Positions 1,881 to 55,381 of a stretch of DNA of 64,000 nucleotides are shown here, one piece after another. Below the pieces are notes generated by a model. That model had not been told where the DNA came from, made no database searches, and saw only the letters and a program-made list of their open reading frames with translations. This DNA is from Mobula birostris (Eukaryota). The position numbers were made by a program, and so were the translations under genes. The stretch's first letter is position 1; each line of letters opens with the position of its first letter. Location of the stretch: the NCBI RefSeq assembly GCF_030028105.1, contig NC_092370.1:139849522-139913521 (forward strand), read 5' to 3'.

Positions 1881-1882
1881 AA

Positions 1883-6594: not shown

Positions 6595-8690
6595 CAAGTC
6601 AAGTTAAATCAAGTTTCTTGTCATTTAACTATGTACATGTATACCCTCAAATGAGATGATGTTTCTCGAACCAGGGTGTAAAGCGCAGTAGTACGTACAC
6701 ATAACACACAATAATTTAGGATAGTAAAGATAAAATCTACAGATCAATTACGCATAAATAAATAAAGTGCATAAGAAAGGATCTAGTGTTTTCCTGGCAT
6801 ATATGACGAATAAACTCTTCTTGGGATAACAGCCGGGTACAGGTATACATTTTAACCTGATTCTAACCGGTTAAATTTGACACCTGTATCCGGCTGGAAG
6901 CCCAAGAAGAGTTTATTCCTAAAGTGACAGGTACAGAACAGATTAACCAGTGACACTTCAAATACGATGTGGCAGGGAGTTCAGAAGCTGAATGGCCTGG
7001 GGGAAGAAGCTGTTTCCCATCCTGACCGTTCTTGATTTTGTGCATTGGAGTCTCCTGCCTGTTGGTAGAAAGTCAAAGAGAATGCTGGATGGATGGGTGG
7101 GATCCTTAATAATACTAAGGGCCCAGCATACACAGTGCTCCTGATAAACATCCCCGACGGATGGTAGGGAGACCCCTATGATCCTCTCAGCTGTTCTTAC
7201 AGTCCTTTGTAGGGGCTTCTGATCCAATGTTCAACTGCTCCCATACCAGACGGAGATGCAACTTGTCAGGATGCTCTCAATGGCGCTCCTGGAAAATTTA
7301 GTTAAGTTGGGGAGGGCCTTGCTTGCCTCAATCTGCTAAGGAAGTGGAGACACTGCTGTTCCTTCTTGTTCAGGGAGATGATGTTCAGGGACCAGGTGAA
7401 TTCATCCATAAGGTGAACTCCCAGGGACTCGGTGCACTTAACTCTCCCTATGGAGGAGTATATATTTCCAGAGGGGGATGGTTTGTCTGCACCTTCCTGA
7501 AGCCCACAATCATTTCCTTAGCCTTTTCCATGTTCAGGCTTAGGTTGTTGTTCTCACACAGTCCACCAGCTGCTCCCCTTCGTCTCTGTACTCCGACTCG
7601 TTATCGTTGTAGATGAGGCCAACCACTGTTGTGTCATCCGCAAACTTGATGACACGGTTTGAGTTGAATCCTGCGACATTGTTATGCGTCAGCAGTGTGA
7701 ACAGCAGCAGGCTGAGCACACAGCCCTGGGGGGTGCCAGTACTCAGAGTAACAGGACTAGAGACATTGCTGGCCACACGGACTGTCCGCGGCCTATCTGT
7801 TAGGATCCCAAATCCCATTACAGAGGGAAGTGTTGAGGCCCAGCAAGAACAGTTTCCCCACCAGTTCCTGGGGCGTGATGTTTTTAAATGCCGAACTGAA
7901 GTCTATAAACAGCAGCTTAGCATACGAGACCCCATTTTCCTGTTGGGACAGAACAGAATGGAAGGCAGAGGGTATCATCAGTGGATCGATTTGAGTGCTA
8001 AGAAAACAGGAAAGGATCCAGTGTGGCTGGGAGTAAGGCTTTATGTTGAATATATCCGTCAGCACCTCAGTTAGTTGGGCTGTGCAGTCTTTCAGAACCC
8101 AACCTGGTACATGATCAGGCCCCACAGCTTTGCGTGACTCTGGCCAGGATATTCCTCACCTCAGCATCAGCCAGGAGTGTCTGCTCCTCTGGGGAGAGGG
8201 GTGCCTTTCTTGCCAGCACTTTGTTCTTTGCATCAAAACCAGGCATAAAAGACATTCAGCCTGTCAGAGAGTGAGGCGTCTTGGTCACAGATGCACAGAG
8301 TAGACTTGTAGTCTGTAATCCTCTGAATTCCCTGCCAAATGCGCCTCGTGTCTCGGGTATCACATAAGTGGTTGTATATTCTCTGAGAATGCTCCCGTCT
8401 TGCCTTGCTGATGGAGTGGGAAAACACATGCTTCCCTGAGAGCTGTCACATCCATCAATATAAGGGCAGCATCAAGATCTCTCAGCTGTGCACAGACCTC
8501 TGCAGTAAGCTATGGCTTCTGATTTGCCCTCATCCGGATATGTTTCCTGATGCTAACATCTTTAGTACACTTCTTCATGTAGCCAGTCACAGAATCCACA
8601 TATTCCTCGATGTTTCCGTGGTTGCCATGGGTAGCAGCCTCCCTGAACATTCTCCAGCTTCTATTTTCAAAGCACTTTGTTCTTGTCTCT
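6595..8690 (-). mobile_element. Rex1/Babar-like LINE fragment
   Basis: Minus-strand ORFs contain GPDHVPGWVLK, LFIDFSSAF, TGTPQGCVLS, KFADDTTVVGLI and NSFFPQAIQLLN; (CTTGA)-type tail at ~6595-6615. Confidence 0.85.
6776..6918. repeat. Fold-back of Penelope family-2 terminus
   Basis: Inverted arms 6808-6857 and 6869-6918 (GAATAAACTCTTCTTGGG...CCCAAGAAGAGTTTATTC). Confidence 0.8.
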
Positions 8691-8899
8691 GTAAGTCACT
8701 GAAGAACTTAATGCCTTACTCAGTTTGAAGCAACCTACTTCATTGACCACTCTATGAGGCACATTCACCCTGAGAAAGGACTTTATATTTGAACACCACA
8801 GACACACTAAATCTTCCCCAGAACATCAGTATCTGCTGGAGGACAGATTCCTAGTGAACCCTTGACAGCCTCGGCAACAGAAAACCTTACTTCATTCCG

Positions 8900-9232
8900 A
8901 AGTGTGCAGTACAGTAGCATAACAGTTAGTGCAATGCTTTACAGTGCCAATCAGGGTTCAATTCCTGCTGCTGTCTTTAAGGAGTTTGTACGTTCGCCCT
9001 ATGATCATGTAGGTTTCCTCTGGGTGGTCTGGTTTCCTCCCACATTCCAAACATGTATGGTTAGGATTAGTGAAACTTGGGCATTCAATTTTGGAGCCAG
9101 AGGTATGGCAACCCTTGCGGGCTGCCCCGAGCACAATCCTCAGACTGTATTGGTCATTGGCATAAACAACACATTTCACTGTATGTTTTGGTGTTTGATG
9201 TACACAGGACAAATAACTAACCTTTCTCTTTA
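8900..9232 (+). mobile_element. V-SINE (tRNA-derived, HE1-like)
   Basis: B-box GGTTCAATTCC, then V-domain GGAGTTTGTACGTT...GGTTTCCTCCCACATTCC. Confidence 0.75.
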
Positions 9233-9627
9233 AATGACGCTCATCAGGTCTGTATTATTTGATGACACCATTGTGCACACTATATCCCTATTTTTCTGTC
9301 CACACTAAAGATTAATTACATAACCACATATTAATTTCACGGATGAGCTACCAATTTGCTCCTGAAAGGGATTAACATTTCTTTTGTGTACTCTATTGCT
9401 CAACACACAAACACATCACACACATAGAAGTGGCTAACAAAAGATTGCTTCAGCATTACGAGCAGCAAACGGTACTGATCAATGTTAAACATTGACATAC
9501 AACATCAACAGTACAGTGCTTCAAAATAAATGTGCTCCATGATGGAATTCCAAGCTCCCATCTCACAAGTTGAAATGTATCACAGCACTTAGCATGGCAT
9601 AAGTCTTCAGTCCTTATCTGACTATAA

Positions 9628-9920
9628 AAGATTAAAGATTAGTTTGATTTATCACATGTACATCGAAACACACAGTGAAATGCATCGTTTGCATTAAATC
9701 AAATCGGCGAGGATGACGCTGGGCAACTTGCATGTGTTGGCACCAACATAGCATGCCCACAACTCACTAACCCTCACACTTACTGTATGCCACTTGGAAT
9801 GTGGGAGGAAATCGGAGCTGCCAGAGGAATCCCATGCAGTCAGGGGGAGAACGTACAGATTCCTTACGGACTGCGGCGAGAATCACACCCCTGCAAAGTA
9901 TTGCACTAATCGCTCCTTAC
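9628..9920 (-). mobile_element. V-SINE
   Basis: Reverse complement of the V-domain (GGAATGTGGGAGGAAATCGGAGC); same tail as 8900-9232. Confidence 0.7.
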
Positions 9921-10504
9921 CTGATCACCCTATATGCAAGAGAGGATAGAGAAATAGAGATTTGTGAATCAGAATGCTGCCAGCCAGCCAGGTTCCATTG
10001 ATACTGCAAAGTCCATTAAACCAAGTAAATGCAAATCAGCATAAAAAACTTACACGTTAAGATGGCAAATGCAGGATCAATGAATTTTTTTGCTTTGATC
10101 AAACACAATAATCCATCATGGAGGTAGAGCATGTTCATTATTTTGTATTATGCATAAGCAAATTTAAACCTTCGAAATTAAAGAATCTCTTTATAGGCAG
10201 TACTGTGCAATCACCTGTTCTCACCAGGCAGTCTTTGTGGATGTTAGAATTACATACCGTGATTATACCACTATGTGAAGAATTATTAAGCAGCTCTGAT
10301 GCACACTAACACTCGGACCACTTAAAGGAATAATATGGAATACTTTCAATAAATGGATTCTTTTGCTTCAATGAATAGATCCTGCCTTTGCATTATATAA
10401 GCAATAATGACTGTGCTGCACTTCTCTATACATTAAATCATCTTGCTTCACTAAGGCAAAATAACTTTAACTGTCCTGCATTTTTGTTCTCAGTCCAATG
10501 GAAG

Positions 10505-11615
10505 ATCAAAAGTTCGAAGTGAATTTATTATCAAAGGGCATATATGTCACCATATGCAGTCCTGAGATTCATTTTCTTGCAAGCAATCACAGTAAGTACA
10601 AGAAACACAATAGCATCAATTAAAGGTTGCACCCAATAGGATGAACAACAAATTGTGCATATACAGAAAGAAAGAGAATAAATAAAGAAAGAAACAAAGT
10701 GAGTCGATAGGTTGTGGGAAAAGTTCAGCGATAGGGCAAGTGAAGTTGAGTGAACTTATCCTCTCTGGCTCAAGAGCCTGATGGTTGAGGGGCTAATAGC
10801 TGTTCCTGAGCCTGGAGGTGTACATCTTGAGGCTTCTTGTACCTGCTTCCTGATGGCAGTAGTGAGAAGAGAGCATGGACTGAATGGGTCCTTGATGATT
10901 GATACTGCTTTCTAGCGACAGTGTTCCATGTAGATATACTCAATGATAGGGAGGGATTTACCAGTGATGGACTAGGATTTTCCATTCTAGGGCTGTGATG
11001 CAACCAGTCAAGATACTCTCCACCACACATCTATAGAAATTTATCAAAGTTTTCACAAACTTCTAAGGATATAGAGGCACTACCTTGCTTTCTTTGTAAT
11101 TGCACTTAGGTGTTGGGCACATACAGTTCCTCTGAAATGATAACACCAAGGAATTTAAAGTTGCTGACCCTCTCTACTTCTGATTCCCCAATGAGGACTG
11201 GCTCATGGACTTCGGGATGCCTTCTCCTGAAGTCAATAATCAGCTCCTTGGTCTTGCTGAGATTAAATGAGAGGTTGTTGTTGTGGCACCACTCAGCCGG
11301 ATTTTCAATCTCCCTCCTGTATGCTGATTCCTCACCAACTTTGATTTGGCCAGTGACATTGGTGCTGTCAGCAAACTTCAATGGAGCTGTGCAAAGTCTC
11401 ACAGTCATAAGTGTAAAGCAAACAGAGCAGGGGGCGAAGCACACAGCTTCGCACTTGTACTGATGGAGATTATGAAGGAGATGCTGTTGCCAAGCCAGAC
11501 TGACTGGGGGATCTGCAAGTGAGGAAATTAAGAATCCAATTGCACAAGGAGATATTGAGGCCTAGGTCTTGAAGCCTATTGATTAGTTTTGAGGCGATGA
11601 TGGTACTGAATGCTG
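10505..11615 (-). mobile_element. Rex1/Babar-like 3' fragment
   Basis: KFADSTNVTGQI...AYRREIE...KTKELIIDFRR...FKFLGV; tail GATAATAAATTCACTTCGAACTTT on the minus strand. Confidence 0.8.
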
Positions 11616-11619
11616 AGCT

Positions 11620-11830
11620 TACTACCTGCCAGTTTGTACTCCTTCCTCTCCCCCTCCAGCTTCTTAATCTGGCTTCTTTTCCTCTTCTTTTGCAGTTCTT
11701 CTGAAGGGTTTCAGCACAAAACATCAACTGTTAATTCCGCTACCCAGATGCTGCTTGACCTGCTGAGTTGCTCCAGCATTTTGTGTGTGTTGCTCAGGAT
11801 TTCCAGCATCTGCAGAACCTCTTATGTCTT
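11620..11830 (+). mobile_element. Penelope family-1 terminus (decayed hammerhead)
   Basis: CAGTTCTTCTGAAGGGTTTCAGCACAAAACATCAACTG followed by the shared terminus. Confidence 0.65.
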
Positions 11831-12864
11831 GAATCCATATGTTTGTTTGTTCAATCACAGGAGATAACCTACAACTTGGAAGGATCCATTTCAATGCCCT
11901 CATAAGAGGTTGTGTGGGGCCTGGAGATCACAATTTTTATTCTGGAGTTTGTGGCATTTCTTTACTGGGTATTCAGGACAAGCCCTTCACAGAAAGGATG
12001 CTGTTCAGTTGATAGTTGCTGCAGAAACACAGGTGCAGGCCACACAAAATGCTGCACCAGCATTAATCAGCTTGATGGCTAATTTCCGCCATAATGGAGG
12101 AGCTTCATGCATTGTAGGAAGTGCTATGCCACCAGGGGACAGCATTAAATCCTGAATGAGAAGACAAACTGCAGGTTAGACCGTAAACTTCAGATTTAAA
12201 TTGGTATAGATGGAAGTGTCTGTCATGTGATTAGTACTATCATTAAATGTGGATCTGAATCCACAAAGAAAATTGGTGTGCTGGCGGTTATTTCTCGGAA
12301 GTCCAATTTTGCCACTGGCGTGATTTCAACAGTAGATGTTGACTAGCATGTTCTGACATAGGTTAAATAATTTTTACACCAAAAATATTTATTAATATAC
12401 TAATTAATCAATATTGAGGTCCATGTAGACTACAAAAACTCTGCAGTATCTGCAACTCAGTGCTTCCTGGATTTAGAGTAGGCCCATATGAATCCAGGGT
12501 TATTTAACTGGGAACAGCTGAACACCAACTGTTCCTGCTGCTACAGTCAGTGTGATGCAGCTAATGAAGAATTTAAAGCTTGCTAATCTTAATTCCCCAT
12601 CCAAGGACCATGGGAGCTCAATAGTTGGCATGGAGTTGATAAAGTGAAATTAGGAGATGAGGGATCAGGTTGGAAGTAAGCTTGAGGTGAAGGAACAGCC
12701 AAGGTATTAAAGGAAAGGTAGGCTTGGGGATATATTTATCTTCAGGATTTTTCTTGTGCTCTTGTATTCTTAATGAATATAAGTTAACAAACTTAATGAA
12801 TATAACTTAACAAATTTCACGACACACGGCGGTGATAATAAACCTGATTCCGATTATGATTCTG

Positions 12865-31489: not shown

Positions 31490-32305
31490 AATAGAGTCAT
31501 TGAGAACTACATCCATTCAGCCTATCTAGTCCATGCAAACTATTACTCTGCATAATCACATCAACCTGCACCTGGATCATAGTCCTTCATGCCCCTCTCA
31601 TTACTGCAATTATCCAAATTTCTCTTAAGTGCTGAAATTGAACCCACATCCACCATGTTTGTTGGTAGCTCGTTCCACACTCTCTCCACCCTCTGAGTGA
31701 AGAAGCTCCCCCCTCATGGTCTCCCTCAACATTTCACCATTCACCCTTAACCCATGACACCTAATTCTAGTCTCATCCAAACTCACTGGAGAAAGCTTGC
31801 TTGTACTTACCCTATCTATACCACTATAATTTTGTATACCTCTATGAAATCTCCCCTCATTCTCCTACGCTCCAGCAAAAAAAAATCTTAACCTATTCAA
31901 CCTTTCTCTAGTCTACTGTCCAGCCTTGGTCAGACTGCACTTTGGTATATTGAAAGCAGGTGGGCCTCTTATCTAAGAGATGTGCTGTCTTTGGAGAATG
32001 TCCAGAGGTTCACAAGAATGATTCTGGGAATGAAAGAGTTAATGCATGAGGAGTATTTGATGGTTCTGGGCCTGCACTAATTGGAGCTTAAACGAATGAC
32101 AGGGGTTCTCAGTAAAACCTATCAAGTACTGAAAGGCCTAGATAGAGTGGATGTGGAGAGCATGTTTCCCATAGTGAGTAAGTCTAGGACCAGAGGACAC
32201 AGCCACAGAACTGAGGGATGTTTCTTTATAACAGAGATGAAGAGGAATTTCTTTAGCCAGGGGGTGATGAATCTGTGGAATTCATTGCCACAAACAACTG
32301 TGGAG
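31490..32305. mobile_element. Two CR1 3' fragments head to head (minus ~31490-31910, plus ~31920-32305)
   Basis: Both match the CR1 C-terminus and 3' UTR (FFSQGVMNLWNSLP). Confidence 0.75.
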
Positions 32306-32310
32306 AATAA

Positions 32311-32598
32311 CGAATTAACTCTTCTCGAGCTCCCACCCAGGTACCAGCATTGATTTTAACCAACATTTCCAAGGCAAACTCTGCCATCTTCATCAAGGAT
32401 GATGCCTAGAAATGTCTAGTCCGGTGGTATATATACCTCGCCCCCCCCCCCCCCCCATTGCCAGTACCTCCTGATTGGTTAGTCCTCATCCAATCCGGTT
32501 TCCACTATCCCACCTTTTTTACAATCAAATTCCAGTTCTTATTTACCGCAGGACCTATTGTGTCATTATTTTTACCAGTGACAACAATTCTTACATTA
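32311..32598 (-). mobile_element. Penelope family-2 terminal repeat with hammerhead remnant at 32358-32400
   Basis: Minus strand reads ATCC-TTGATGA-A-GATGGCA-GAGTT-TGCCTTG-GAAA-TGTT-GGTT. Confidence 0.7.
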
Positions 32599-32606
32599 CT
32601 CTAGAG

Positions 32607-32677
32607 CTGGGGTTCCCAACCTGGCATCTACGGTTAATGATAGGTGTTCATGGCTTTAAAAAGGTTGAGAACCCCTG
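32607..32677. mobile_element. hAT (Charlie/Buster-like) MITE, 71 bp
   Basis: TIRs CTGGGGTTCCCAACCT and AGGTTGAGAACCCCTG; 8-bp TSD CTCTAGAG (32599-32606) / CTCTGGAG (32678-32685). Confidence 0.85.
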
Positions 32678-33294
32678 CTCTGGAGTCTGCATATCAAATT
32701 GCTTAATTAGCTATGGAGACTTTTGGATGGCTGCTGTCGTGAATATGTCATATATGCCATAGAACTTGAAGTATTCCTTACATCTTTCTATTAGTACTTG
32801 TGCTGCTGCTTTTGGCTCCTCGTCTTCGTCTTCACTGAATGAAATAAATGATATGATATAAAATTTAGAACATAATAAAATCAGCATGTCTGTTACAATT
32901 ATAATTTAGATCAATAAAATTTCATTTTGCTTTTCATATACTTTAGAACCAAAAATAATGAATCTGCTACTGTTCAAAGAATTATTCTTTATTTAAGAAG
33001 TGAAATCAATCATATTCAGCTCGGCATTATTTTAATATTCTTTTCCTGAAGCAACACCCAAAAATGCATCCAGAATCATTTTTGTATTTACCAGTTTTCC
33101 ACAAAAAAAACCTTCATTCCAGGCCAGCTAATTTATTCTGAAAGCTGTATCTTAATATTTTAACCTTAGTGCAACAACTGTCCTTTTGTGGTTTTCGTTC
33201 AATCATTGATAATGAATGGCTATGAAGTTTTCAAAATTGTCTTATAATGAATTACATAACAATATCAGCAATTTTAGACAATAACATTTTATAC

Positions 33295-35384: not shown

Positions 35385-35462
35385 GGGCGGTGCCATGGCA
35401 CCATGAGTAGAGCCACTGCTTTATGGCTTCAAAAACTTGGCTTCAATCCTGTCTGATGCACA

Positions 35463-35508
<46 letters not shown>

Positions 35509-35990
35509 CACAGACAATTCTGGAGGAACTCAGCAGTTCAGGCAGTAAGTATGGAGAGGAATAAATAGTCAATGTTTCAGGCCAAGACCCGAAAGATTGA
35601 CTGCTTATTCCCAGCATTCGGTGCTGCCTGGCCTGCTGAAATCTTCCAGCATTTTGCGTGCATTACTCTGGACTCCCAGCATCTACAGAAATCTCTAGTG
35701 TTTCTGTCTTCAATCCTGACCATTGGTCTGTGTGAAGTGTGGACACTCTCACTGACAACATGGTTTCCTTCAGGTACCCCAGTTTCTTCCCACATCCTAA
35801 AAATTGGTCGGTGAATTGTCCATGGTAAGTTGCCTCTGGGGTGTGGATGAATGTTGCAACTGAGTTGGCGGGGGAGATAGGTAATGGTTCTGTAAGGAGA
35901 ATAAAGTGGGTTTGGTTTAGGGTTAGTTGGAAATGAGTGTTTGATGACTGATGCAAACTTGATGGTCCGAAGGACATGTTTCCATACTGT
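35385..35990 (+). mobile_element. V-SINE interrupted at its B-box by a fold-back Penelope insert
   Basis: Head ~35385-35451; V-domain resumes after 35718. Confidence 0.6.
35452..35707. mobile_element. Fold-back Penelope family-1 mini-element with 11-bp TSD and (CA)n expansion
   Basis: TSD CTTCAATCCTG at 35441-35451 and 35708-35718; inverted termini around 35575-35595; CA repeat 35459-35512. Confidence 0.75.
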
Positions 35991-36034
35991 ATTTCTCTTT
36001 GACTTTGTGGGGAGAACATACCCATTACCTCCTT

Positions 36035-36072
36035 CAGTCCTGATGAAGGGTCTCAGCCCAAAACATCGACTG
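36035..36072 (+). ncRNA. Minimal type I hammerhead motif in Penelope terminus (GAAA mutated to AAAA)
   Basis: CAGTC-CTGATGA-A-GGGT-CTCA-GCCC-AAAA-CATC-GACTG; stem I CAGTC/GACTG is perfect. Confidence 0.7.
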
Positions 36073-42254: not shown

Positions 42255-43250
42255 AAGTTAAAAGTACATTTATTATCGAAGTATGTATAGCATCTATTAT
42301 ATCGCCTTGAGATTCATCTCCTTGCAGGTAACTACGAAACAAAGAAACTCAGTAGAACCCATAAGGAAGAAAAGACTGGCAAACAATGTTCAAAAAGAAG
42401 AAGAAATCATGAAAACAATAGAACATTTGCAAATAACATTCAGAAGTAAAGTTCACGAAATTGAGCTTACAGCCACAAAGCCAGTCAGAGCTGACCCGGG
42501 AGCCCATCCATTGTAGTCGCAGCCTTAGTTCAGTGCAGAAGTAAGTAAACCTTGCCAAGCAGCGAGCTGAACGTGGCCCATCCCTAAACTTGATAATTTC
42601 AGAAATTTAAATGAGGAACTCTGACCCTATAGCTTTATAAACCATCGACCTTGCAGACATCTAATGACAGAAGCGAAGAAGCTGTTCCTAAATCATTGAG
42701 TGTGGGTCTTCTGGATCCTGCTCCTTCTCCCTGATGGTTGTACCGTGAAAGCGTGGCCTGCATGGTGAGGTTCCTCGGTGATGGGTGCTGCCTTCTTAAG
42801 GCATTATCTTTTGATGTTCTTGATGGTGAAGGGAGTTATGCTGTGATAGAGCAGGCTGAGTCTAAACCCTGTGCACATTGGAGGATCCATATTAGGCTGT
42901 GATGCAACCACCCAGAAGGCATTCCACCATACATCTATAGAAATTTGTAAGCGTGTTCAAAGTAAATTTATTACCGAAGTACGTTTATGTCACCATACAC
43001 TACCATGAGATTCGTTTCCTTGCAGACAATAAAAAAATGGAATTTCTGAAAAACTAAAAATAACAAAGACTGACAAACAATGAAAAGAAGATAAATTGCT
43101 TAAATAATAAAAAAGTAAATATGTGATACTGAATTGTAGAGTCCTTGGAAGAATATCAATAGGTTGTAGAGTCAGTTCAAGGTTGAGGTGAGTGAAGATA
43201 TCCATGTCTTTGACATACCAAATCTACCGAAACTCCAAGCAACGTTAGAG
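42255..43250 (-). mobile_element. Cluster of Rex1-derived non-autonomous fragments
   Basis: Repeated AAAGTA(A/C)ATTTATTA(T/C)C tails at ~42262 and ~42960; similar to 10505-10900 and 55382-55890. Confidence 0.6.
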
Positions 43251-43679
43251 CCTTATACTGATGGAAGAGACAATTTCATTTTATTTTCTTTTACCAGAGA
43301 TAAGCAGATGGTGTGATTGCAAAGGTCTGCACAGATTGCAGCCATCTCCATGGCAGAGGATGCCCTTGACTGCATTCAAGCTGCTTCACTAGAACCTGCT
43401 GTGAACTCTCCTATTTTAATGAAACAAGAGGGAATCAACTTCCTCAGTGTGCGGCAGATGTTCAACCACAGGCAACACATTATCCAGGTGAATGCCCATT
43501 GTTGTGGAAAAAGAAGTATTTCCTTCCTTTTGTACCAGTGGTTTGTGCTACTTACGTTTAACTCTTAGTAAATCAAAGACTAGATATGAGCAACAATCCC
43601 ATCCCTGGTCCTCACTGGGGCTTTTCCCTCATGATGAATTTACAGTATATTACTTAGAGATGCACCACAGTAACAGGCT

Positions 43680-44165
43680 GCTCAAACTCAACTGTGAACT
43701 AATTCCACAACCTATCGATTTTATTTCAAGGACCCTATAACTTCATGTTCTCGGTGTTATTTACTTATTTGTTTGACTATTTAATTATCATTTGTCTTTT
43801 TGTGTTTGTGCAGATTGTCTTTTGCAGGTTGGGTGTTTGTCAATCTTTTTGTGTGGAGCTTTTCATTGATTCTGTTGTATTTCTTTGATTTTCTTGCAGG
43901 CATTCACAGTAAAACAATCTCAGGGTAGTATATGGTGACATATACATATGTACTTTGATAATAAATTTAATTTGAACTTTGAAATTTGAACAAGCCAATT
44001 ACACCCATGTGACTAGTTAACCTACTTACCTGTATGCCTTTGGAATAAGGGAGGAAACTGTAGCACCCAGAGAATGTTCCCAACTCCTTACACACAGCAG
44101 CAGGGATTGAACCTGGGTTACTGGTGCAGTAATGGTGTTACGCTAGCCAGTGTGCTACTGTGCCC
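43680..44165. mobile_element. Rex1-derived tail (+, ~43680-43990) followed by a V-SINE (-, ~43995-44165)
   Basis: Tail ATAATAAATTTAATTTGAACTTTGA; GGGAGGAAACTGTAGCACCCAGAG and GGGATTGAACC. Confidence 0.6.
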
Positions 44166-44409
44166 CCCTCCCCCATATACGGCAATTAGCTGACACGTTG
44201 CAGCATTTCCAAAGAAATTCCCTTGTTCTGTCATCATAACATGGACAGCCCCTCCACCTCTACCTGTCCACTCTCTGACTACATTCTAAAATGTGTAGGT
44301 GGACAACCCTCCCAATATCAATGTTTCTAAAGTGGAGCCAGTGGTGAATTCAAACAGCACCCTACTATTCGCATCTTAGATTCCTAGGAGGGTCTTGGAG
44401 ATAGGAATG

Positions 44410-45060
44410 CTATGCAGGACCATATACTGACCACAAAAAGCATTACCATTGGATTCCTGTAAAAACTCTATTTCATGTCCAATTCCTCCATCTCCATCGT
44501 AATTGCTCTGAAGACAGGGTTTTCCACTTAGATGTTTCTGGCATGTCTTCCATTTTCCTGAATCAGAGCTTTCTCTCATTTATTTCCTGCACCCGGCCCC
44601 TCTCTTCCTGGACAGGATAAGGATCAGTTTCGCCAGGGTCTCACCATCCCCTTCAGCAGACTCTGAATTGAATGTATCAGCTTCCACAATACCTGCCCGT
44701 TTCCAAATGCTTTCACCTACACAAACATCTTTGACCACCACCCCCATCCTTTCAGCATTTGATAAGGATGCTTGCCTTAATGACTCCATGATCAGCACTT
44801 CCATCCCCACCAACCTCACTGGTACGCAGCACTTATCCTCGCATCTCATTATTTCCCACCATCTAGAACCCAAGATAAATCCATATGTTCCATTCTACCA
44901 CCTATCATTTTCATTCTCCATCCTACACCCATAAGTCTGTGGCCATCTACGCTCTTATGATTAGATCTTATGGTAACCTTAAGGAAAATTTCTTCTTCTG
45001 TCTGCAGCCTTCTGTAGTCAATGCTGAATTCTGCAACCTTAAGCAATTTGGTGTCTCAAT
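44410..45060 (+). mobile_element. Old Penelope fragment
   Basis: Degenerate similarity to 880-1020 and 1900-2070. Confidence 0.5.
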
Positions 45061-45114
45061 CTGTATCAGAACTGTCTGTTTCCATTCTAAAGATTAAGGA
45101 ATAAAGGTTAAAGA

Positions 45115-45410
45115 TTGAAGAGTAAAGATTAGCTTCATTTGTCACATGCACATCAAAACACAGAGTGAAATGTGTCATCTGTGTCAGCAAGGATTGTGCT
45201 TAGTAGCTCACTGCTACATATTCAACGTCAACATAGCGTGCCCATAGCTCACTAACCCTAACCGTACGGTTTGGAATGTGGGAGGAAACTGGAGATCCGA
45301 GGCAGTCATGCGGAGAATGTACGGACTCTTTAAAGTGGCAGCAATTCAATCTCAGTGTGACAGCTGGCACTGTAAAGCATTACCCTAACCACTGCACTAC
45401 CATGTCACTC
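45115..45410 (-). mobile_element. V-SINE
   Basis: Matches 9628-9920. Confidence 0.7.
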
Positions 45411-45894
45411 TAAGACATCTGATTTGGCTCAGACTTTCTCTCTTTGGTAACACATCCCACAACCCTGTTATTCACAATACCCATTACATATTCCACATTA
45501 TCACCCACTGATTGCTCAGTTCATCCATTTGACAAGAGGACTTAAACAAATTACCCTGATGGCAAATTTGGCCTCAACGAAATACAGATGATCTTTTTAT
45601 CCTATCTATCCCCTCACTTTTTTTGAATCGGGATTAGATATTGGCAGGCAAGTACTCATGTCAGGCACAAAAGTCCATCTTTAAACTGTTGAAAATTGTG
45701 GGCATCCTTTGTTAGTGCCAGAACATGTGATACTTGTGGGCTACCTCCAGCTCATCATTAGGTTGTGTTGGTTGTTAATATAAACAACACAATTTTCACT
45801 GTATGTTTTGATGTACGTGTGATAAATAAATGATTCTGAATCTGAAAGTGCACCAGTGGCATTAAAAGCTGGAAAATATGGTATTTTCTTCTGT

Positions 45895-46210
45895 TATAGA
45901 GTCATATTAAAGTGCAGCACAGAAACAGACCCTTTGGCCCATCTAGTCCATGTTGAAACCATTTAAGTTGCCTATTCCCATCAACCTGCACAGGGACCAT
46001 AGCCCTCTATACAGCTGTAATCCATGTACCTGTATAAATTTATCTTAAAAGTTGAAATCGAGCTTGCATGCACTGCTTGTCTTGGCTGCTCCTTCCACAC
46101 TCTCACAACCTTCTGTGTGAAGAAGCTTCCCCTCATGTTCTCCTTAAATGTTTCACCTTATACCCTTAACCTGTGACCTCTAGTTGTAGTCCGACCCAAC
46201 CCCAGTGAGA
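45895..46210 (-). mobile_element. CR1 3' end
   Basis: Matches 31490-31780. Confidence 0.7.
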
Positions 46211-47229
46211 AGTACATACAATTAGATGGAAATGTCTATCAGGAAAGAACCAGACCAGCTAAACAATTTAGTCTGTCCTTACACAAGCCAGGATGCCTAT
46301 ATGGGTAAATGTATTTCTCCTTACATTGCTTATTAGCTAGTGTAACCTGTGGGGATAAGCATTCATGAATAAGGAGTCCATTACCTTCTGCCTTATTCTC
46401 AGTTTCTCCATATAACTGACCTTGTGAAGGACAAGTATATATAAATACAACACAGATTTGTGCTCTGTCCTCCTGTGCAAACACTTCCAGAAAAATTGCG
46501 CCAGAGAGTCAGTGGAATAATGGATCCATCAATCTGTTATCTCTGGATCATGTTTAAATCCATTTGCAAAAAGTGACCCCATTGGTTTTCATAAAGGACT
46601 CGTATGGAAGTGTTCAATCTGCAGTCTATTAAGCAGAACTCCTCAGTTTAAAAAACAACCAAACATAAAGACTATTTTAGCAAATCTTGTGCAAAAATCC
46701 ATAATGATGGCTGGTGTAGGAAATCTAATTATTATATCACGGTAGAAGATTGTTTTTCCAGATTGGTGTCAAAGTAAATTGTTAATGCAGCTTCGCAGAA
46801 TTTTATTTCAATTAATCAGTTCTAAACCTTGAGGTAAAAATGTTAACTGGCAAGTGGCTCAGTGCAGGAATTTGGGCCAACAGAAAACCTTACCATCTTC
46901 AGAACCAGGTTACATTTGAGATAATCACATTTTAAAGTGCAGAGAAGGGGGAAAGGGGCAGAAAAAACAGTGGGACCATCTGTGTTAAGGAGGAAGATGG
47001 GGCAGATTTGACAATGCCCTGAAGTGGTTGTGCATCAGCCCCTGTTCCCAAGGTGTAGGTGCTGGCAAGTGTGGTGACACTTTTGAGCTAGTCACATCAC
47101 ATCCTTCAAGGAGCAGAGCAGTGTAATCAGCAGGCTCAAATGTGCACTCTTATTCCTTCCCGATCACTGCGGTTATGTTAAATCTGATTCTGAAGTAGCT
47201 GCACTTGTTGTTGGGGGATAAAGAAGGTT

Positions 47230-48130
47230 TTTTCAATGCTTGTCTTTATTAATCAAGGAAATGAGTTCATGAATCAAGAAGTTTATATTTCAGCTTTATA
47301 AAACTGGTTAGGCCGTATCCAGAGTATTACATTTATTTTTGGATCTCCCCATTACAGGAAGCACGTGGAGGCTTTGTAGATGATACAGAAGAGGATGCAG
47401 CCTAGATTAGTGGCACGTACTATATGGAGAGATTCGACAAACTTGGGTTGTCTTCTCTGGAGTGTCGGACGCTGAGAGGAGACCTGATAGAAGTTTATAA
47501 AATTTTGAGAGGCATGGATAGAGTAGGCATCTGTTAATATTTTGCCCAGAGTCAAAATGTCTATTATCAGAGAGCACAAGTTTAAGGTGAAAAGGAGGAA
47601 GTTCATGGAAGATGTGTAGGATGATGTTTTTATACAGGGAGTGGTGGATGCCTAGAATGTGCTGCCAGTGGTCATGGTGGTAATGACGTTGAAGGCACTT
47701 AAAGACACCAGACTGGCACATGTGGTAAATGGGATGTCCGGGGGGGGGGGGGGGGGGATAGCACCTCTGGTGAATGAGCTTGCAATGTCCATACAAGGGC
47801 AGCTCATTCATCCGTGGTTCCCACCGGACACTCAGCTCTCACCTGTGGCTCCAAGTAGTTGTTTGCATGAAACACTAGTCACACCCCAGTACACCCATAC
47901 TGTTTTTTTAAATCTCCATATCAAAGAAATAATATACTTGCATTGGAGACAATGCAGAAAAAAAATGTTTAGGTTGTTACCTGGGCTGGAGGGGTTGACC
48001 TTTGATGAAAATTTGAGTGATTAGTCTCCTGTTCATTGGAGTGTCAAATAATAAGAGGAAATTTTATTATGATAAACAAGACTCTAGGAGATATGAACAA
48101 AATCGATTCTGGAGATGTTTTCTCCAAATG
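47230..48130 (+). mobile_element. CR1 3' fragments with an intervening G-run-initiated insert (~47740-47900)
   Basis: LRGDLIEVYKILRGMDRV at ~47475-47525. Confidence 0.65.
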
Positions 48131-49339
48131 TGGATGAAGTGCCTCGCCTGAAATATCAACCTTTTATTCCTCACTGTAGTTGCTGCCGGACCTGTTAAGT
48201 TCCTCCAGCATTTTGTGCATGTTACTCTGGATGTCCAGCATCTTGTGTTTGTGAAATGAAATGTTTTGTGTTTTGCATGCAACTGGGTTCCACAGTAACA
48301 TCAATCCAATGATTCCTCAGTGCCCTGTTATAAATTAATTCCAAAACTGCCTGGAAAACAATGGGATGACAATTTCATAACACATTGAACACAGATGAAA
48401 TCTTCCTCCATTGTACACCAATTTAAGAGTGAAAAATTAATTAGTAGCTGAAAACATCAATGTTTTGTAAACTGCCTGAAGCATGGTACTGTTGGATTTG
48501 TATAATAAGTCCTCTCGGGAAGGTAACCACAAAAGGAAAGAATTTCAAAATTTTTGTTTGAAAGGAGAGGATCAAGCACATGAAAGCTTTATCATCAAAG
48601 AACTACTTTCATATTTAGCTGTCTCACTGAGACTAATTGATATTCTTCACTTGTAAGCATCTACGTTTTTGATCTATAGCCCTTGGATAATGGAATATCT
48701 GATTCCAGGTTTAGAATTCTACAGCGATAGCCCCATCCAAGCTCACTGCACATGTATTATTGATGGGGGAAGCTGTGAATCAGTGGGTATCATAAACCTT
48801 TGTGTTGCTTTTAAGTTACACACATCAGTGATGTCAACCCATCCAGCATGACATTCCTGCACAGGATTTGAGAAGTGCTGCTTCGTTGGAGGTGCCATAT
48901 AACAAATAACTTATTAAATCAACATCATGTGTGCCCCTCAACTATATAACGACACTAATGCACTATTTCAGGCAGGGCTTAAGATGTGCCTTATGTGTCA
49001 CATGTACTTTGAAACACATGGCTTGCATCAAATCAAATCAGCGAGGATTATGCTGGGCTGCCCACAAGTGTTACCATGTTTCCGATGCCAACATGACATG
49101 CTAGAAACTCACGAACCCTAACTACTCCTTTGGAATGTGGGAGGAAACTGGAACACTTGGAGGAAACACACGTGGTCATGGGAAAATGTATTTATGTTCT
49201 CCTTACAGGCAGAAACAGGATCCCGATCGGTGAAAGCTGGCATTGTAAAGTAGTCCATATGAAGGGTCTTGGCCTAAAATGTCATCTGTTTATTCCTTTT
49301 CATTAATGCTGCCTGACCTGCTGACTTGCTCTCGCATTT

Positions 49340-49822
49340 TAGCATGATTCCGGGAATGAGAGGGTTAACATATGAGAAACATTTGTCCGCTCTTGTACTG
49401 TATTCCTTGGAGTTTAGAAGAATGAGGGAAGACCTCACAGAAACATTTCGAATGTTGAAAGGCATAGACAGAGTGGATGTGGCAAAGTTGTTTCCCATGA
49501 TGGGGGAGTCTAGTACAAGAGGGCATGACTTAAGGATTGAAGGGCGCCCATTCAGAACAGAAATGTGAAGAAATTTTTTTAGTCAGAGGGTGGTGAATCT
49601 ATGGAATTTGTTGCCACAGGCAGCAGTGGAGGCTAAGTCATTGGGTGTATTTAAGGCAGAGATTGATAGGTATCTGAGTAGCCAGGGCATCAAAGGTTAT
49701 GGTGAGAAGGCGAGGGAGTGGGACCAAATGGGAGAATGGATCAGCTCATGATAAAATGGCGGAGCAGACTCAATGGGCCGAATGGCCGACTTCTGCTCCT
49801 TTGTCTTATGGTCTTATGGTCT
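49340..49822 (+). mobile_element. Young CR1 3' end
   Basis: MIPGMRGLTYE...REDLTETFRMLKG; intact (TCTTATGG)n tail; CpGs retained. Confidence 0.9.
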
Positions 49823-49848
49823 TTATATGTGTTACTCGGTGAAACAAT

Positions 49849-50611
49849 TGTAATGGGCTGAGTTGGTCAGACCCAAACAATTCAGGTGTCCACGAGATGT
49901 GGTAGTAAGTGTACAAGCACAACAAAGTAACTTAAGGCTAATTTATTGTCATAAAACAGAAAGTACAAATAAACAACACAGAATGCCACAAAAATTTCCA
50001 CAGATATTTCAGGGCTCTCAATTCTTAGTCACCACTTGATTGTCGCTGTTGTCCGGGAATCTCTGATTTCTGACTCGCTCATGAAGCCACCTCTGGGTCC
50101 AAGGCACTGGTTGTGAAGTCCAACAAACCCAGGGAAGGTCCCCCAGTAAATATGAATATCATAAGCACAGAGGGACATGCAGAGACAGATAAATTCTTTG
50201 ATCTTTTGTTCTCATGCCTTTCTTTCATTCAAACAATACATGGGCTCATTAACATATTGGTCACCATACTCTTATAAATCAATTAGACACTCTAATGGGT
50301 CACTTCTTATCCATCAATCTGCCACTGGTTTGGACCTAACATTCTTACATACAAAACAACATTAATATTGCATAAGTGATAAGCCTGAACCCAAAAAGGA
50401 ATCCATCAATTTAGCTCTCAAAGGGAACAACAGATATTTAGTCATTAACAGACTTTTTCATGTTAATGATGCCTGAGACTAAGAAAGAATCCAGCTGCAG
50501 ACATTAATAGAACAACAGTATATACCTTGTACAGACACACTAAATGCTGTAAGGTTACAAAGAGTTAAATTGTCATTTTGAACAGTTCAGACATTCATTC
50601 AACGTTTTACA
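49849..50611 (-). mobile_element. Probable solo LTR
   Basis: TGTAA...TTACA termini; flanks CAAT/AAAT (3 of 4 match); AATAAA on the minus strand at ~49943. Confidence 0.45.
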
Positions 50612-52604
50612 AAATGTAATATAACACAGCAATTTATTCCCACTATGCTACTGTGCTGCCCTTAGGGAATTATGGTTAATATTTCTCCTCCTATAAGCAC
50701 CATTGAAACAAATTATCTGATCTGTATTTAATCTCGTCTTGTTGACTTATTGTGTGAAATTGCTTCCTGCATTAGAATAGTGACTAAACTTAAAAACAAA
50801 ACTGATGCAAAGCATTAAGTAACATTCAGAACTTTTGAAAGTCTCTGTAGGTGGGGTGGCATGGTAGTGTAGTGATAAGCCTTGCACTATGACAGCGCCA
50901 GCAACATGGGTTCCACATCATCACAGGGAGAACTTGCAAACTCTACAACGACAGCATCTTGGGTTCAGATGTGAAGCTGGGTCACTTCACTAGATGTGCC
51001 ACATTTTTCTGCACAATATGGCAGAGGAATTGAGAGAAGAGGATCCAGGCTAAAAATGGTTGAAGTGATTGACATCCATTTTGAGAATATGAAGAGAGGG
51101 GTACATGGAGCTCGGAGACAGAGTTTACTGTGGCCACAGAGGATTTGTACAATATGGATGAGACTCCCAAATTCATTGTGCTGGAACATCCTGGAAACAT
51201 CCCACTGTCCAGACGATGCTAATTGGCCCTGGCAACTTGGATTTCCTTTTACCAAGGACAGATGTTTTAACCATCTGCATCTGATGGGTGTCTCACGAGC
51301 AAGTAACAAGTGAGACTGCATTTAAAGGCTTTGAACAGTCTTAATGACTGGTAAAATGGAAGTGTCCTGACAAAAGCCTGTGGTGGGATCAGTGACAAGA
51401 TCAAGGATCAACTTTATTCACCATATATGTTTACATATATTAGGAATTTGGAATTTGCTGTGGTGTGTTAGCGTAACATGCAACAAAAACAACATTCAAC
51501 AATTTTAAAGAATAAAGAATTATATGGAAATAAAGAATTATGTACTATATTAAATACTAGCAGGTTATTTACAATGTAAGCAGCATTATAAAAAGTTTAA
51601 AGCTTCTGCAGTGCAGTGACAGGGGTAATAAATAGAGGGGGTTGGGGGGGAAACCGCTTCTATTTTACATGATGGTCGATTAGATTAACTGCCTTGGGGT
51701 AGAACCTTTTAAGATGGCCCTAATAGCCTTATAGCCTTTTCCAGAAGGGAGCTGCTGGGAAAGGTATTTTGCAGGTTGGGTAGTGTTCTTACCACATTCA
51801 GAATGACTACAATACTTCAGTTTAGTAGTTAATCTAAATAGTAGCAATACCGTTCTCTGTTTTAGGAGTATTTTGCATATATATGTTAATATACTTTAAG
51901 GAACTTTGATAATCCAGCATCTGCTTGCTTGGGACTTCTGGTAGTTCCATACCTGACTCACATGTTTGCCTGGAGCATGAGTTGTAATTAGCAGTGTAGG
52001 GAAGGAGTACAGTCGGAGCTGGAGCTTTCTACGAGCCTGAAGCTGGGACACTGGGATCAGAAACATGGAGTGGCTTGTAGCCAGAGTCAGGATTTAGAGT
52101 ACTTGAGTATGTCCATGGCCCTTAAACTCACCAGATTCGCTAATTATTACAACAGTGTGCAATATGTATACAGCACTAATTTATAAAATTATATGTTGAT
52201 ATGAGTGGGAGTAACATCCTATAGTCCATAAAAGCTGCTCGTCTGGCACTATCAAAGTCCCTAGGGTGTGGGTTGTCTGAGTCCTATTGTAACTTGCTTC
52301 CATCAAGATGAATCTTCAATATTTCACATACAATAAATTATTTTATATACGTTCCTTGGCTTTTGTGATGAAATTTGTGAATCCTTAAAACTATGGAACA
52401 AAGAATCCTTTACTACCCTGTTCCTATGAACCAGAAAACTGTATGCAGCCTATGTGGTTTTCTCATGGAGACATGAGATAGCAGATGTTAGATCCTGGAA
52501 GGAAAAAACAACAAGATGCTAGAGGAACTTGGTGGGTCAGGCAGAATCTCTGGAGGAAAACGGACAATCAATGATTTGGTTCAAAACTTGTAAAAGACCT
52601 TATC

Positions 52605-52997
52605 ATTTCCATCGCCGCCGGCCGACCATTCCATGCACTCACCACTCTCTGCATAAAATCTTATCCCTGACATCTCTCCCTGCACCTACTTCCAAACACC
52701 TTAAAACTGTACCCTCTCATGCTAGCCATTTCAGCACTGGGAAAGAGCACCTGGCTATCCAATGATCAATGCCTCTCATCATCTTATACACCTCTGTCAG
52801 GTCACCTCTCATCCTCCATCGCTCCAAGGAGAAAAGGCCTAGTTCACTCAACTTATTCTCAAAAAGCATGTTACACGGTGCTTAGAAAAATAGAGGGCTA
52901 TGGGTAACCCTAGGTAATTTCTAAAGTAAGTATATGTTTGGCTCAGCATTGTGGGCCGAAGGGCCTGTATTGTGCTGTAGGTTTTCTATGTTTCTAA
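52605..52997. mobile_element. CR1 copy with 5' inversion
   Basis: 52605-52870 is the reverse complement of ~4170-4435; 52875-52997 matches 4475-4615 directly. Confidence 0.8.
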
Positions 52998-53705
52998 TAT
53001 GAGAGTCATGGTTAGAATGGATAGTCATTACCTTTTTCTCAAAGTGGCAAATGCCAAAACCAAAGATAGCAATTTAAGGTGTGCAGTGGAAAGTTTGGGA
53101 AAGATATCAGAGGTGAGAATTATTTTACACAGAGATTGGAGCCTGAAAAGCACTGCCCATGGATGTGGTAGAGGTTGATATCATTGGAATATTTCAAAGA
53201 TTCTTGGAAACACATAGATGTAAGAAAATTGGGAGACTATGGCCTGTGTAGGAGAGAAGGATTAGATTGATTGTGGAACACACACAAAAAATGCTGGTGA
53301 ATGCAGCAGGCCAGGCAGCATCTATAGGAAGAGGTACGGTTGACATTTTGGGCCGAGACCCTTCGTCAGGACTAACTGAAAGAAGAGATAGTAAGAGATT
53401 TGAAAGTGGGAGGAGGAGGGGGAGATCCAAAATGATAGGAGAAAACAGGAGGGGGAGGGATGGAGCTAAGAGCTGGAAAGTTGATTGGCAAAAGGGATAC
53501 GAGGCTGGAGAAGGGAGAGGATCATGGGACGGGAGGCCTCAGGAGAAAGAAAGGGGTAGGGGAGCCCAGAGGATGGGTAAGGAGTTATTGTGAGAGGGAC
53601 AGAGGGAGAAAAGAGAGAGAAAAAAATAATAAATAAATAAACAAACAAACAAACAAACAAATAAATAAATAAATAAGGGATGTGGTAGGAAGGGGAGGTA
53701 GGGCG

Positions 53706-54032
53706 TTAAAAGAAGTTAGAGAAGTCAATGTTCATGCCATCAGGTTGGAGGCTACCCAGACGGAATATAAGGTGTTGTTCTTCCAACCTGAGTGTGGCTT
53801 CATCTTGATAGTAGAGGAGGCCATGGATAGACATAACAGAATGTGAATGGGACAGGGAATTAAAATGTGTGGCCACTGGGAGATCCTGCTTTCTCTGGCG
53901 GACCGAGCGTAGGTGTTCAGTGAAACGATCTCCCAGTCTGCGTCGGGTCTCGCCAATATATAGAAGGCCACAACGAGAGAACCGGACGCAGTATATCACC
54001 CCAGCCGAGTCACAGGTGAAGTGTCGCCTCAC
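53706..54032 (-). pseudogene. GIY-YIG endonuclease domain of a Penelope-like element (open frame, 5'-truncated)
   Basis: GVIYCVRFSRCGLLYIGETRRRLGDRFTEH...VATHFN...LEEQHLIFRLGSLQPDGMN. Confidence 0.92.
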
Positions 54033-54347
54033 CTGGAAAGACTGTCTGGGTCCCTGAATGATGGTAAGGGAGGAAGTGTAAGGGCATGTGTAGTACTTGT
54101 TCTGCTTACAAGGATAAGTGCCAGGAGGGAGATCGGTGGGAAGGGATGGGGGGGTGTGAATGGACAGGGGAGTCGGTAGGGAGCAATCCCTGCGGAAAGC
54201 AGAGAGGGGGAGGGAGGGAAAGATGTGCTTAGTGGTGGGATCCCGTTGAAAGGGGTTCCATCCCTCCCCCTCCTGTCTTCTCCTATCATTTCGGATCTCC
54301 CCCTCCCCCTCCCACTTTCAAATCTCTTACTATCTCTTCTTTCAGTT

Positions 54348-54383
54348 AGTCCTGACGAAGGGTCTCAGCCCGAAATGTCGACT
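54348..54383 (+). ncRNA. Minimal type I hammerhead ribozyme motif (best-preserved copy)
   Basis: AGTC-CTGACGA-A-GGGT-CTCA-GCCC-GAAA-TG-TC-GACT; CUGANGA and GAAA cores intact; predicted cleavage after GUC at 54379. Confidence 0.8.
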
Positions 54384-55381
54384 GTACCTCTTCCTATAGA
54401 TGCTGTCCGGCCTACTGTGTCCATCAGCATTTTTTGTGTCTGTTGCTTGAATTTCCAGCATCTGCAGATTTCCTTGTGTTTGCGAGATTGATTATGGAGT
54501 ATGTTTTTATACTGTAGGCCTGCACGACATCTGTGGTCGAAGGGCACATACTAAGCAATACTGTTCTGTCTTCTTTGTTAATTTGTAATGAATTTGGTCC
54601 ACCATGTCTCCAGCATTTCCTGTATCGACTTTGTAAGTCTCCCCTCTGAAATTCACTGCAGAACTCCAACTCTCTTCTGCATCCCTGCAGTTACCGCTCC
54701 CTTCCTAAGACCTTTCTCAATTCGACTGTTCCTTTAGCTCTTATCTTCCCATCACTCGAGACCAAAAGTCGCCTCCAGGTGAAGCCACAATTCACCAGCA
54801 CTCTTTCCATTCTAGAGCAGTGCAACTGTGCTCATTGTGTGGGATCCTTTACCTTAGAGAAAGTAAGTGTTTAACACCCCTTTCAGTCTGTGAAGATGAC
54901 CTTAAACTTCTATTTTCTCGTCATTTTCATCCATCAACAGTGGCAACTGTGTCATCCAGATTGTTTGGGTCCCTTCCCACTTAAAAATATTCTCTTTGAG
55001 CTCTCTATTCCTCCTTCTCCACAACTTATATATTTGTTCTCTCACATTTCCAATTCTGATTAAAGGCAACTGACCTGTAAGGTGAACTGTTTCTATCTCT
55101 TTGTAAGCTACCTGACCTTCTGAAAATCTTCTGTCCTCTTCTGCTTCACCTACATTGACTTTTGAAGCTGTATTCTGTTTAATTTTTCTTGTGACTTTTC
55201 ATGCTTTTAGCTTACATCTCAGCACCTGAAGATTGCTGCAAAGAATCTTTTTTTAAATTTCTGTCTATTGACATGTTGTTCAGTCCTGTTTAACTCATAG
55301 TTCTGACGGTCAGGGAGTCCTACAAGAAGCACATAGGCCCTTCTGTCTACCAAGTCTATGCTGATTATCAGGTGTCTCCTT

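What the first reader, a model, noticed from the sequence alone, without database searches (positions are those of the whole stretch)
6776..54484. Shared architecture of four fold-back Penelope inserts from two families
Seen: 6776-6918, 18345-18524, 35452-35707 and 53278-54484 are all inverted terminal copies. One arm keeps an extra ~30-40 nt tail that the other lacks. In the three short ones the inversion point lies in or beside the hammerhead. Established: Penelope copies often have an inverted terminal repeat and a short tail extension. Inference: breakpoints near the ribozyme suggest that cleavage or its structure sets RNA ends and template switching.
Basis: partly seen in the sequence, partly recalled or inferred. 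Interest (0 to 1): 0.72.

Follow-up and report, generated by a model that had tools for sequence, protein, structure and literature searches.

The report
Fold-back Penelope insertions ending at hammerhead
Four small mirror-image insertions in this ray-like genome are ordinary remnants of Penelope-type jumping genes; the three shortest are joined inside the element's predicted self-cutting RNA motif, which hints, on too few copies to prove it, that the motif limits how far the RNA is copied.

Summary
All four are head-to-head pairs of element 3' ends, with a 32-41 nt tail on one arm and target duplications (7, 14, 11, 14 bp). Three belong to one Neptune-like family (D carries a GIY-YIG endonuclease fragment). 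A is a second family, probably Poseidon-like, with no protein match. This architecture is published (PMC3846280, PMC8557442), and the tail is explained by two RT start sites (PMC11167929). All 6 short-insert arms end inside the ~37-nt minimal hammerhead; 3 end within 2 nt of the predicted cut, and A has an extra 11-nt re-copy that also ends there. D's junction is far from the motif. Over 20 arms in the window, none ends at +6..+35 and 10 end in the motif, but the rate there is no higher than upstream (p=0.24): a floor at the cut rather than a peak. Contigs from four runs showed end piles at the motif's outer edge and no listed pile at the cut (truncated tables). No genome was held, so the genome-wide test is undone. 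Verdict: known kind; a role for cleavage is open.

The parts
6763..6769 (+). Insert A, left copy of 7-bp target duplication (right copy 6920-6926); weak on its own
6770..6857 (-). Insert A tail-bearing arm (family A, Poseidon-like); 5' end exactly at +1 of predicted cut; tail 6770/6776-6807
6858..6868 (-). Insert A junction piece: 11-nt copy of element positions +1..+11, again ending at the predicted cut; forms a short palindrome with the right arm
   Evidence: 10 of 11 match to the copy at 32351-32361
6869..6918 (+). Insert A tail-less arm, starts at +1 (or -1) of predicted cut, ends at +50
18331..18344 (+). Insert B, left copy of perfect 14-bp target duplication (right copy 18525-18538)
18345..18443 (-). 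Insert B tail-bearing arm; 5' end at -2 (range -2..+1) of predicted cut; 36-nt tail 18345-18380
18443..18524 (+). Insert B tail-less arm; starts at the bulged A before stem II (-21)
35441..35451 (+). Insert C, left copy of 11-bp target duplication (right copy 35708-35718)
35452..35590 (-). Insert C tail-less arm; starts at the first G of stem II (-20); (CA)n expansion at its 3' end
35588..35707 (+). Insert C tail-bearing arm; starts at the 3' strand of stem II (-11); the three C's at 35588-35590 are shared by both arms
53264..53277 (+). Insert D, left copy of 14-bp target duplication, one mismatch (right copy 54485-54498)
53278..54256 (-). Insert D long tail-less arm: C-terminal ORF, 3' UTR, hammerhead (53338-53373), end at +64
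53706..54256 (-). C-terminal ORF fragment with decayed CX4CxxC linker and GIY-YIG endonuclease (Neptune-like)
54257..54484 (+). Insert D tail-bearing inverted arm; 5' end at -123; tail 54445-54484
54348..54383 (+). Best-preserved minimal type I hammerhead in the window (core 54352-54358 and 54372-54379; predicted cut 54379|54380)
2771..2895 (+). Solo family-A copy spanning a decayed hammerhead (used to place the cut in insert A)
32300..32590 (-). Solo family-A copy spanning the hammerhead; ATG at 32387, predicted cut 32362|32361

Best explanation
These are four target-duplication-flanked, head-to-head pairs of Penelope-like element 3' ends, likely made in one insertion step when both strands of a staggered cut primed reverse transcription at the element's two start sites 30-40 nt apart and the two short cDNAs were joined, with copying likely tending to run at least to the predicted hammerhead and to stop from there upward. 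Shown: arms, one-sided tails, target duplications, junction positions, and both arms of B and of D coming from the same subfamily. From published work: two RT start sites define the tail and the protein nicks and extends both strands (PAc). Inferred: (1) priming at the upstream site gives the tail-less arm and priming at the downstream site gives the tail arm; (2) both usually copy the same RNA or same-source RNA, the downstream RT trailing, which would explain why the tail arm never reaches further 5' than its partner (B -2 vs -21, C -11 vs -20, D -123 vs about -910, A tie); (3) cDNA ends are joined with 0-3 nt of overlap, which for two antisense cDNAs can only come from self-complementary sequence, richest in the hammerhead; (4) most ends reflect stalling or joining in an uncut hairpin, with cut RNA a possible minority source (A).
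For: TSDs and arms. GIY-YIG and RT-EN relatives. PAc cleaves and extends both strands, is predicted to be a dimer, and its two RT starts match the genomic tail. Family A's tail ends +82..+88 from the predicted cut; PAc's downstream start, 111-118 nt into the ORF with the cut after ORF nt 29, is +82..+89. Arms of B and of D are each other's nearest relatives among 16 arms and share 15 departures from the majority. C's junction is the 3-nt stem II overlap. Microhomology of 3 nt or more is available at 7.1% of position pairs in the motif against 1.8-3.0% in flanking zones. 0 of 20 arms end at +6..+35 against 10 in the motif (p=0.0007 for all arms), and planted arms ending at +6, +16, +26 were found in 59, 56, 49 of 60 trials without tail.
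Against: For the 12 solo copies alone the downstream gap is not significant (p=0.077). Solo-copy 5' ends are read by eye from alignments; their TSD search did not beat the null. The detection test used a model built from the same copies, so it is optimistic. C's arms are not each other's nearest relatives (2 shared, 17 and 10 private departures), so C may come from two RNAs or is simply old. 'Tail arm shorter' is 3 of 3 (p=1/8), and the literature says the tail can be at either end. A hairpin downstream of the cut is as stable as the motif in 38-nt windows (-9.3 vs -8.9 kcal/mol) yet holds no ends, so plain stalling at structure is not sufficient. D's junction has nothing to do with the motif.
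Confidence: 0.6

Rival explanations
1. Hammerhead cleavage, helped by the bound protein, creates RNA 5' ends at +1; RT runs off there, and such cDNAs make a distinct class of arms. Compatible with the two-primer step, but makes cleavage the main cause of the floor.
For: Insert A has both arms and an 11-nt re-copy ending at +1 (random 11-mers match a family-A position that well in 74 of 5000 trials, self-matches included). B's tail arm ends at -2..+1 and the solo copy at 2209 joins ORF sequence at about +3. 3 of 6 short arms within 2 nt of the cut: p 0.02-0.04 under uniform ends in the motif. The floor sits at the cut itself. PAc hammerhead cuts only with protein. Five of the listed joints have an end at 54374-54383 (cut at 54379|80).
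Against: 6 of 10 ends in the motif lie upstream of the cut and need uncut RNA. A's junction is equally produced by 2-nt annealing at the CG spanning the cut. None of the 24 loose-end rows shown (of 980) is at 54380. Core mutants did not affect insertion in vitro and no RNA-seq reads ended at the cut in Anolis. Two earlier AI notes on other genomes report only mild or no enrichment at the cut (leads only).
Confidence: 0.3
2. Self-priming: one cDNA (or antisense template) folds back at a hammerhead stem and is copied into a palindrome, which the endonuclease then resolves, leaving the tail on one side.
For: C's junction is exactly the stem II fold-back product; A has a short palindrome centred on the cut; proposed for rotifer Penelopes from palindromic junctions and for tail formation.
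Against: In B, C and D the arm holding the loop lacks the tail, so the copied arm carries sequence absent from its supposed template unless an extra trimming step is added. B's junction is not symmetric in the monomer hairpin. PAc data explain the tail without it.
Confidence: 0.2
3. The motif's outer edge is simply where the copied RNA often begins (transcript or processed start), or where subfamilies stop resembling each other; junctions inside the motif are ordinary short-range truncation plus the reader's selection.
For: Loose ends pile at 54348/54349 in all four runs, and tandem-type joints restart at 54348 and 54350. End rate in the motif equals the upstream rate (p=0.24). Sequence upstream of the motif is least conserved among window copies (0.56 vs 0.78).
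Against: None of the six fold-back arms ends at the outer edge (-32); it does not explain the empty zone downstream of the cut or the three ends at +1 in A. The 54348 pile is largely other subfamilies (its loose consensus is their C/T-rich upstream sequence).
Confidence: 0.2

Closest known systems
Canonical endonuclease-bearing Penelope-like element insertions with inverted 5'-truncated copy and 30-40 bp tail (Arkhipova et al. 2013, PMC3846280; Craig et al. 2021, PMC8557442)
   Same: Head-to-head inverted ends inside one TSD, tail on one arm, palindromes at the junction, heavy 5' truncation, C-terminal GIY-YIG in D.
   Different: A, B and C are cut down to 140-260 bp with no ORF and with the junction inside the hammerhead; the passages I read do not map junctions relative to the cut.
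PAc, Poseidon of Anolis carolinensis (Frangieh et al. 2024, PMC11167929)
   Same: Same 3' core octamer before the cut; family A has an ATG at stem II in the same frame across the cut and the same cut-to-tail-end distance (+82..+88 vs +82..+89).
   Different: ATG-to-cut is 26 nt here, 29 nt in PAc; no protein match was found for family A; the other family is Neptune-like with ends at about +64 and +104.
Minimal type I hammerheads of metazoan PLEs (Cervera and de la Pena 2014, PMC4209133)
   Same: No helix III, palindromic 15.2-16.2, bulged base before stem II; they also note pairs 100-700 bp apart on opposite strands.
   Different: Activity untested here; all window copies are decayed; in the short inserts the motif is cut in half by the junction.
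L1 twin priming and dual priming (Meyer et al. 2010, PMC2837659)
   Same: Two cDNAs primed from both sides of a staggered cut, joined with little or no microhomology inside one TSD.
   Different: L1 twin priming gives non-overlapping arms and a poly(A) end; here both arms cover the same 3' end from two fixed start sites.
Animal non-LTR retrozymes (bioRxiv 10.64898/2026.07.22.740005)
   Same: Short, non-coding, hammerhead-related, PLE-derived.
   Different: Retrozymes are head-to-tail arrays with whole ribozymes; these are single head-to-head dead ends with no sign of self-propagation (each junction differs).

Membership tests
EN+ Penelope-like element (family of B, C, D) | C-terminal GIY-YIG endonuclease | tested here: met
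   Pfam GIY-YIG E=0.0015 in D, below the curated cut-off; relative P0014 passes it; stop codon directly before the 3' UTR
EN+ Penelope-like element (family of B, C, D) | RT upstream in the same ORF | tested here: met
   Not in the inserts; relatives P0012, P0014, P0018 carry RT-type sequence plus this domain, and matching RT fragments lie elsewhere in the window. Telomerase-like RT phylogeny not tested.
EN+ Penelope-like element (family of B, C, D) | Hammerhead in the terminal repeat | tested here: met
   Core and stems: 29 of 40 stem I and 20 of 24 stem II cells paired in 8 decayed arms; majority letters in four runs restore the palindrome
EN+ Penelope-like element (both families) | Inverted truncated partner, 30-40 nt tail, TSD | tested here: met
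Neptune clade (B, C, D) | CX2-5CxxC linker before a C-terminal GIY-YIG | tested here: met
   Complete in relatives P0001/P0002, one Cys lost in D; definition. Nematis shares the motif.
Neptune clade (B, C, D) | RT phylogeny with Neptune references | not tested
   No named reference set was fetched
Penelope/Poseidon clade (A) | RT-EN protein without the linker motif | tested here: inconclusive
   Two protein searches with the decayed peptide found nothing real
Penelope/Poseidon clade (A) | ORF start in the hammerhead and tail geometry as in PAc | tested here: met
   the motif rests on only two decayed spanning copies
Active hammerhead ribozyme | Self-cleavage at the predicted site | not testable with these tools
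   Only RNA contigs were available; they cannot show ends
Non-LTR retrozyme | Head-to-tail repeats, each with a whole hammerhead | tested here: not met
   The four inserts are head-to-head; window catalogue shows no tandem array

The most novel reading that the evidence does not exclude
Fold-back junctions are a fossil record of the insertion complex: the protein-assisted minimal hammerhead cuts the template in vivo during insertion, so a class of arms ends exactly at +1 (insert A has three such ends), and two RTs share one RNA so the tail arm can never overtake its partner. Both would be directly countable in any ray or shark assembly and would give in vivo evidence on what Penelope hammerheads do.
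Probability: 0.25. Interest if true: 0.65.

Novelty: new member of a known kind. Interest (0 to 1): 0.3.

Why it matters
Whether the minimal hammerheads of Penelope elements cut in vivo, and how the inverted arm is made, are open questions. This family is very abundant (75,647 contigs of one run were laid on a 228-nt end), so two cheap counts could address them: a one-base spike of arm ends at the cut, and which arm carries the tail. The four inserts themselves are ordinary dead copies.

Tried and rejected
No whole genome is held, so the genome-wide test could not be run. Rfam: no hammerhead among 7 weak hits. A loose core pattern gave 7 matches against 5.84 by chance. Pattern scans of viral (6 and 0 loci), metagenome (21) and prokaryote (14) contigs: none of the 41 loci holds a copy; matches stop near the 19-mer. 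No RNA holder was listed in the run search; X17 is only guessed to be RNA and is contigs, so it says nothing on RNA ends. TSD search for 12 solo copies did not exceed the null. Family-A protein searches: nothing and one spurious repeat protein. An apparent exact 26-nt ATG-to-cut match with PAc was a counting difference (29 nt there) and was dropped. Single-sequence folds of the motif are not better than shuffles (z -0.98, -1.87, +1.06, +0.45), and cofolding did not give the active dimer form. Assembly artefact was rejected: arms differ by 5-25% and sit in TSDs. Two independent insertions at one site were rejected for B and D (shared subfamily, one TSD). Frangieh Fig. S2 is a picture and gave no text; it bears on copy ends in Anolis. 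Literature searches returned no paper that I could see mapping inverted junctions to the cut; subscription papers (Arkhipova 2006, Pyatkov 2004) were not read.
Full report
Observation. All four stretches are inverted pairs of the same element end inside a target duplication. B has a perfect 14-bp TSD, C 11 bp, D 14 bp with one mismatch; none of 142 random controls scored as high. A's 7-bp TSD is matched or beaten by 10 of 142. Arm identity is 84, 95, 75 and 92% for A-D. One arm in each runs 32-41 nt further 3'. A shares nothing with B-D. The best protein hits for D's ORF are from Mobula and Hypanus (88 and 85%), so the host is probably a ray (inference).

What the elements are. D's long arm encodes the end of an ORF with a weak Pfam GIY-YIG match and a decayed CX4CxxC linker, complete in its relatives; that linker marks Neptune and Nematis. 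B and C align with D's 3' end as other subfamilies. The end holds a minimal hammerhead as defined in PMC4209133: core at 54352-58 and 54372-79, predicted cut 54379|54380. The eight letters before the cut match those of PAc, whose cut was shown in vitro, once the majority letter from the runs is used. In 8 window arms spanning the motif, 29 of 40 stem I and 20 of 24 stem II cells pair, with losses concentrated at the CpG of the first stem I pair; conservation is 0.78 in the motif and 0.56 upstream. I saw no convincing compensatory change. Family A has two spanning copies, both decayed. It has an ATG at stem II in PAc's frame and a tail ending +82..+88 from the cut, as in PAc, but no protein match. 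'Poseidon-like' is therefore a geometric inference.

Junctions, relative to the cut. A: tail arm +1, then 11 nt repeating +11..+1 (10 of 11 to the 32.3-kb copy; 7 and 8 of 11 to A's own arms), then the other arm from +1 or -1. B: tail arm -2, partner -21, one shared letter (three if one A was lost). C: tail arm -11, partner -20, sharing the three letters of stem II. D: tail arm -123, partner about -910, no clear overlap. In B, C and D the tail arm is the one reaching less far.

Is the clustering more than chance? I catalogued family copies by HMM (19 and 5 hits) and kept 20 arms: the 8 insert arms and 12 solo copies. Four weak hits (E 0.045-0.71) were dropped; two of them (12014, 61597) would be short, downstream-ending arms if real, which works against the floor. 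Solo ends were estimated by eye, and three (20416, 21750, 55024) are only lower bounds. Ends: 0 at +6..+35, 10 at -32..+5, 7 at -33..-125, 3 further up (D's long arm was entered as -880, which does not change the zones). Downstream versus motif p=0.0007, but 0.077 for solo copies alone; motif versus upstream p=0.24. So the pattern is a floor at the cut, not a peak in the motif. Four of the ten ends in the motif are within -2..+3 (p about 0.04, post hoc).

Wider data. No genome was held and collection scans found no copies. I laid 4 of 24 listed runs, all contigs, on D's tail arm: 75,647, 80,411, 23,145 and 4,099 contigs. Of 980 loose-end rows 24 are shown. They sit at the tail end (54481/2), at the two edges of the motif (54348/9 and 54385), at 54432 and 54471, plus one minor row at 54258; none at 54380. 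The edge piles mostly mark where other subfamilies diverge, although 54349 in X5 looks like mixed genomic flank. Of 45 joints 15 are shown, 3 on opposite strands (54330/54375, 54348/54447, 54383/54480); 12 of 76 rows with inserted letters are shown without orientation, including 54379/54335, 54374/54334, 54375/54337, 54396/54367 and 54458/54348. These touch both the cut region and the outer edge and decide nothing.

Mechanism. PAc nicks and extends both strands and starts reverse transcription at two internal sites that match the genomic tail. The simplest reading is that each side of a staggered cut primes one cDNA, one from each site, and the two are joined head to head, as in L1 twin or dual priming. 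Same-subfamily arms in B and D support one event with one source; C does not show this. Two antisense cDNAs can only anneal through self-complementary sequence, which the motif offers two to four times more often than its neighbours. Cleavage could add arms ending at +1, as in A, but was dispensable in vitro and unseen in Anolis RNA-seq. Simple snap-back fails to give a tail on the copied arm without an extra step (for the proposal).

Comparison and novelty. Inverted truncated partner, one-sided tail and palindromic junctions are described, as are opposite-strand hammerhead pairs. I found no paper mapping junctions to the cut. Earlier AI notes of this scan report the same theme in other genomes, with weak or no role for the cut; they are leads, only partly tested here. 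What I saw of each paper: PMC11167929 parts 1-3 of 4 and an empty figure supplement; PMC4209133 parts 1-2 of 4; PMC3846280 passages and Discussion; PMC8557442 passages; PMC2837659 passages; bioRxiv 2026.07.22.740005 part 1 of 5 and passages (supplements closed). Labels for neighbouring repeats (CR1, hAT, Tc1, SINE, Gypsy) are recalled, apart from the Pfam RT and integrase hits.

Verdict: real, ordinary in kind, with two cheap testable hints (ends at +1, tail on the shorter arm). Interest 0.3.

Noticed in passing
window 1820-2323: Neptune-like ORF fragment with internal deletions joined on the same strand to a tail-bearing 3' end at about +3 of the predicted cut; either a template jump from a cut RNA end or a later deletion.
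   Followed up: partly
window 14-1031 (+) and 19346-19653 (-): RT fragments of the same Neptune-like family (tblastn).
   Followed up: no
window 49250-49340: Solo copy starting at the outer edge of stem I (-32), next to what looks like a SINE end (label recalled).
   Followed up: partly
window 54202-54281: D's junction region can form a hairpin because a C/T-rich ORF stretch resembles the C/T-rich UTR where the inverted arm starts (weak Rfam alignments).
   Followed up: no
window 32598-32686: Small inverted-repeat element with an apparent 8-bp duplication (hAT-like MITE, label recalled) just upstream of a family-A copy.
   Followed up: no
window 15954-16020: Hairpin resembling joined Tc1/mariner terminal repeats (label recalled); weak Rfam miRNA match.
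   Followed up: no
window 57233-57284: 52-nt, 85% perfect hairpin with no link to either family.
   Followed up: no
window 58263-62513: Broken Gypsy-like LTR retroelement (integrase Pfam hit at 60478-61035).
   Followed up: no
window about 16630-17240: 613 N bases.
   Followed up: no
runs X3 and X5 on window 54257-54484: Joints from the tail back to the motif's outer edge (54483 to 54350; 54458 to 54348 at about six-fold depth, orientation not given), possibly retrozyme-like head-to-tail units; and four joints pairing -50..-43 with -6..-1.
   Followed up: no
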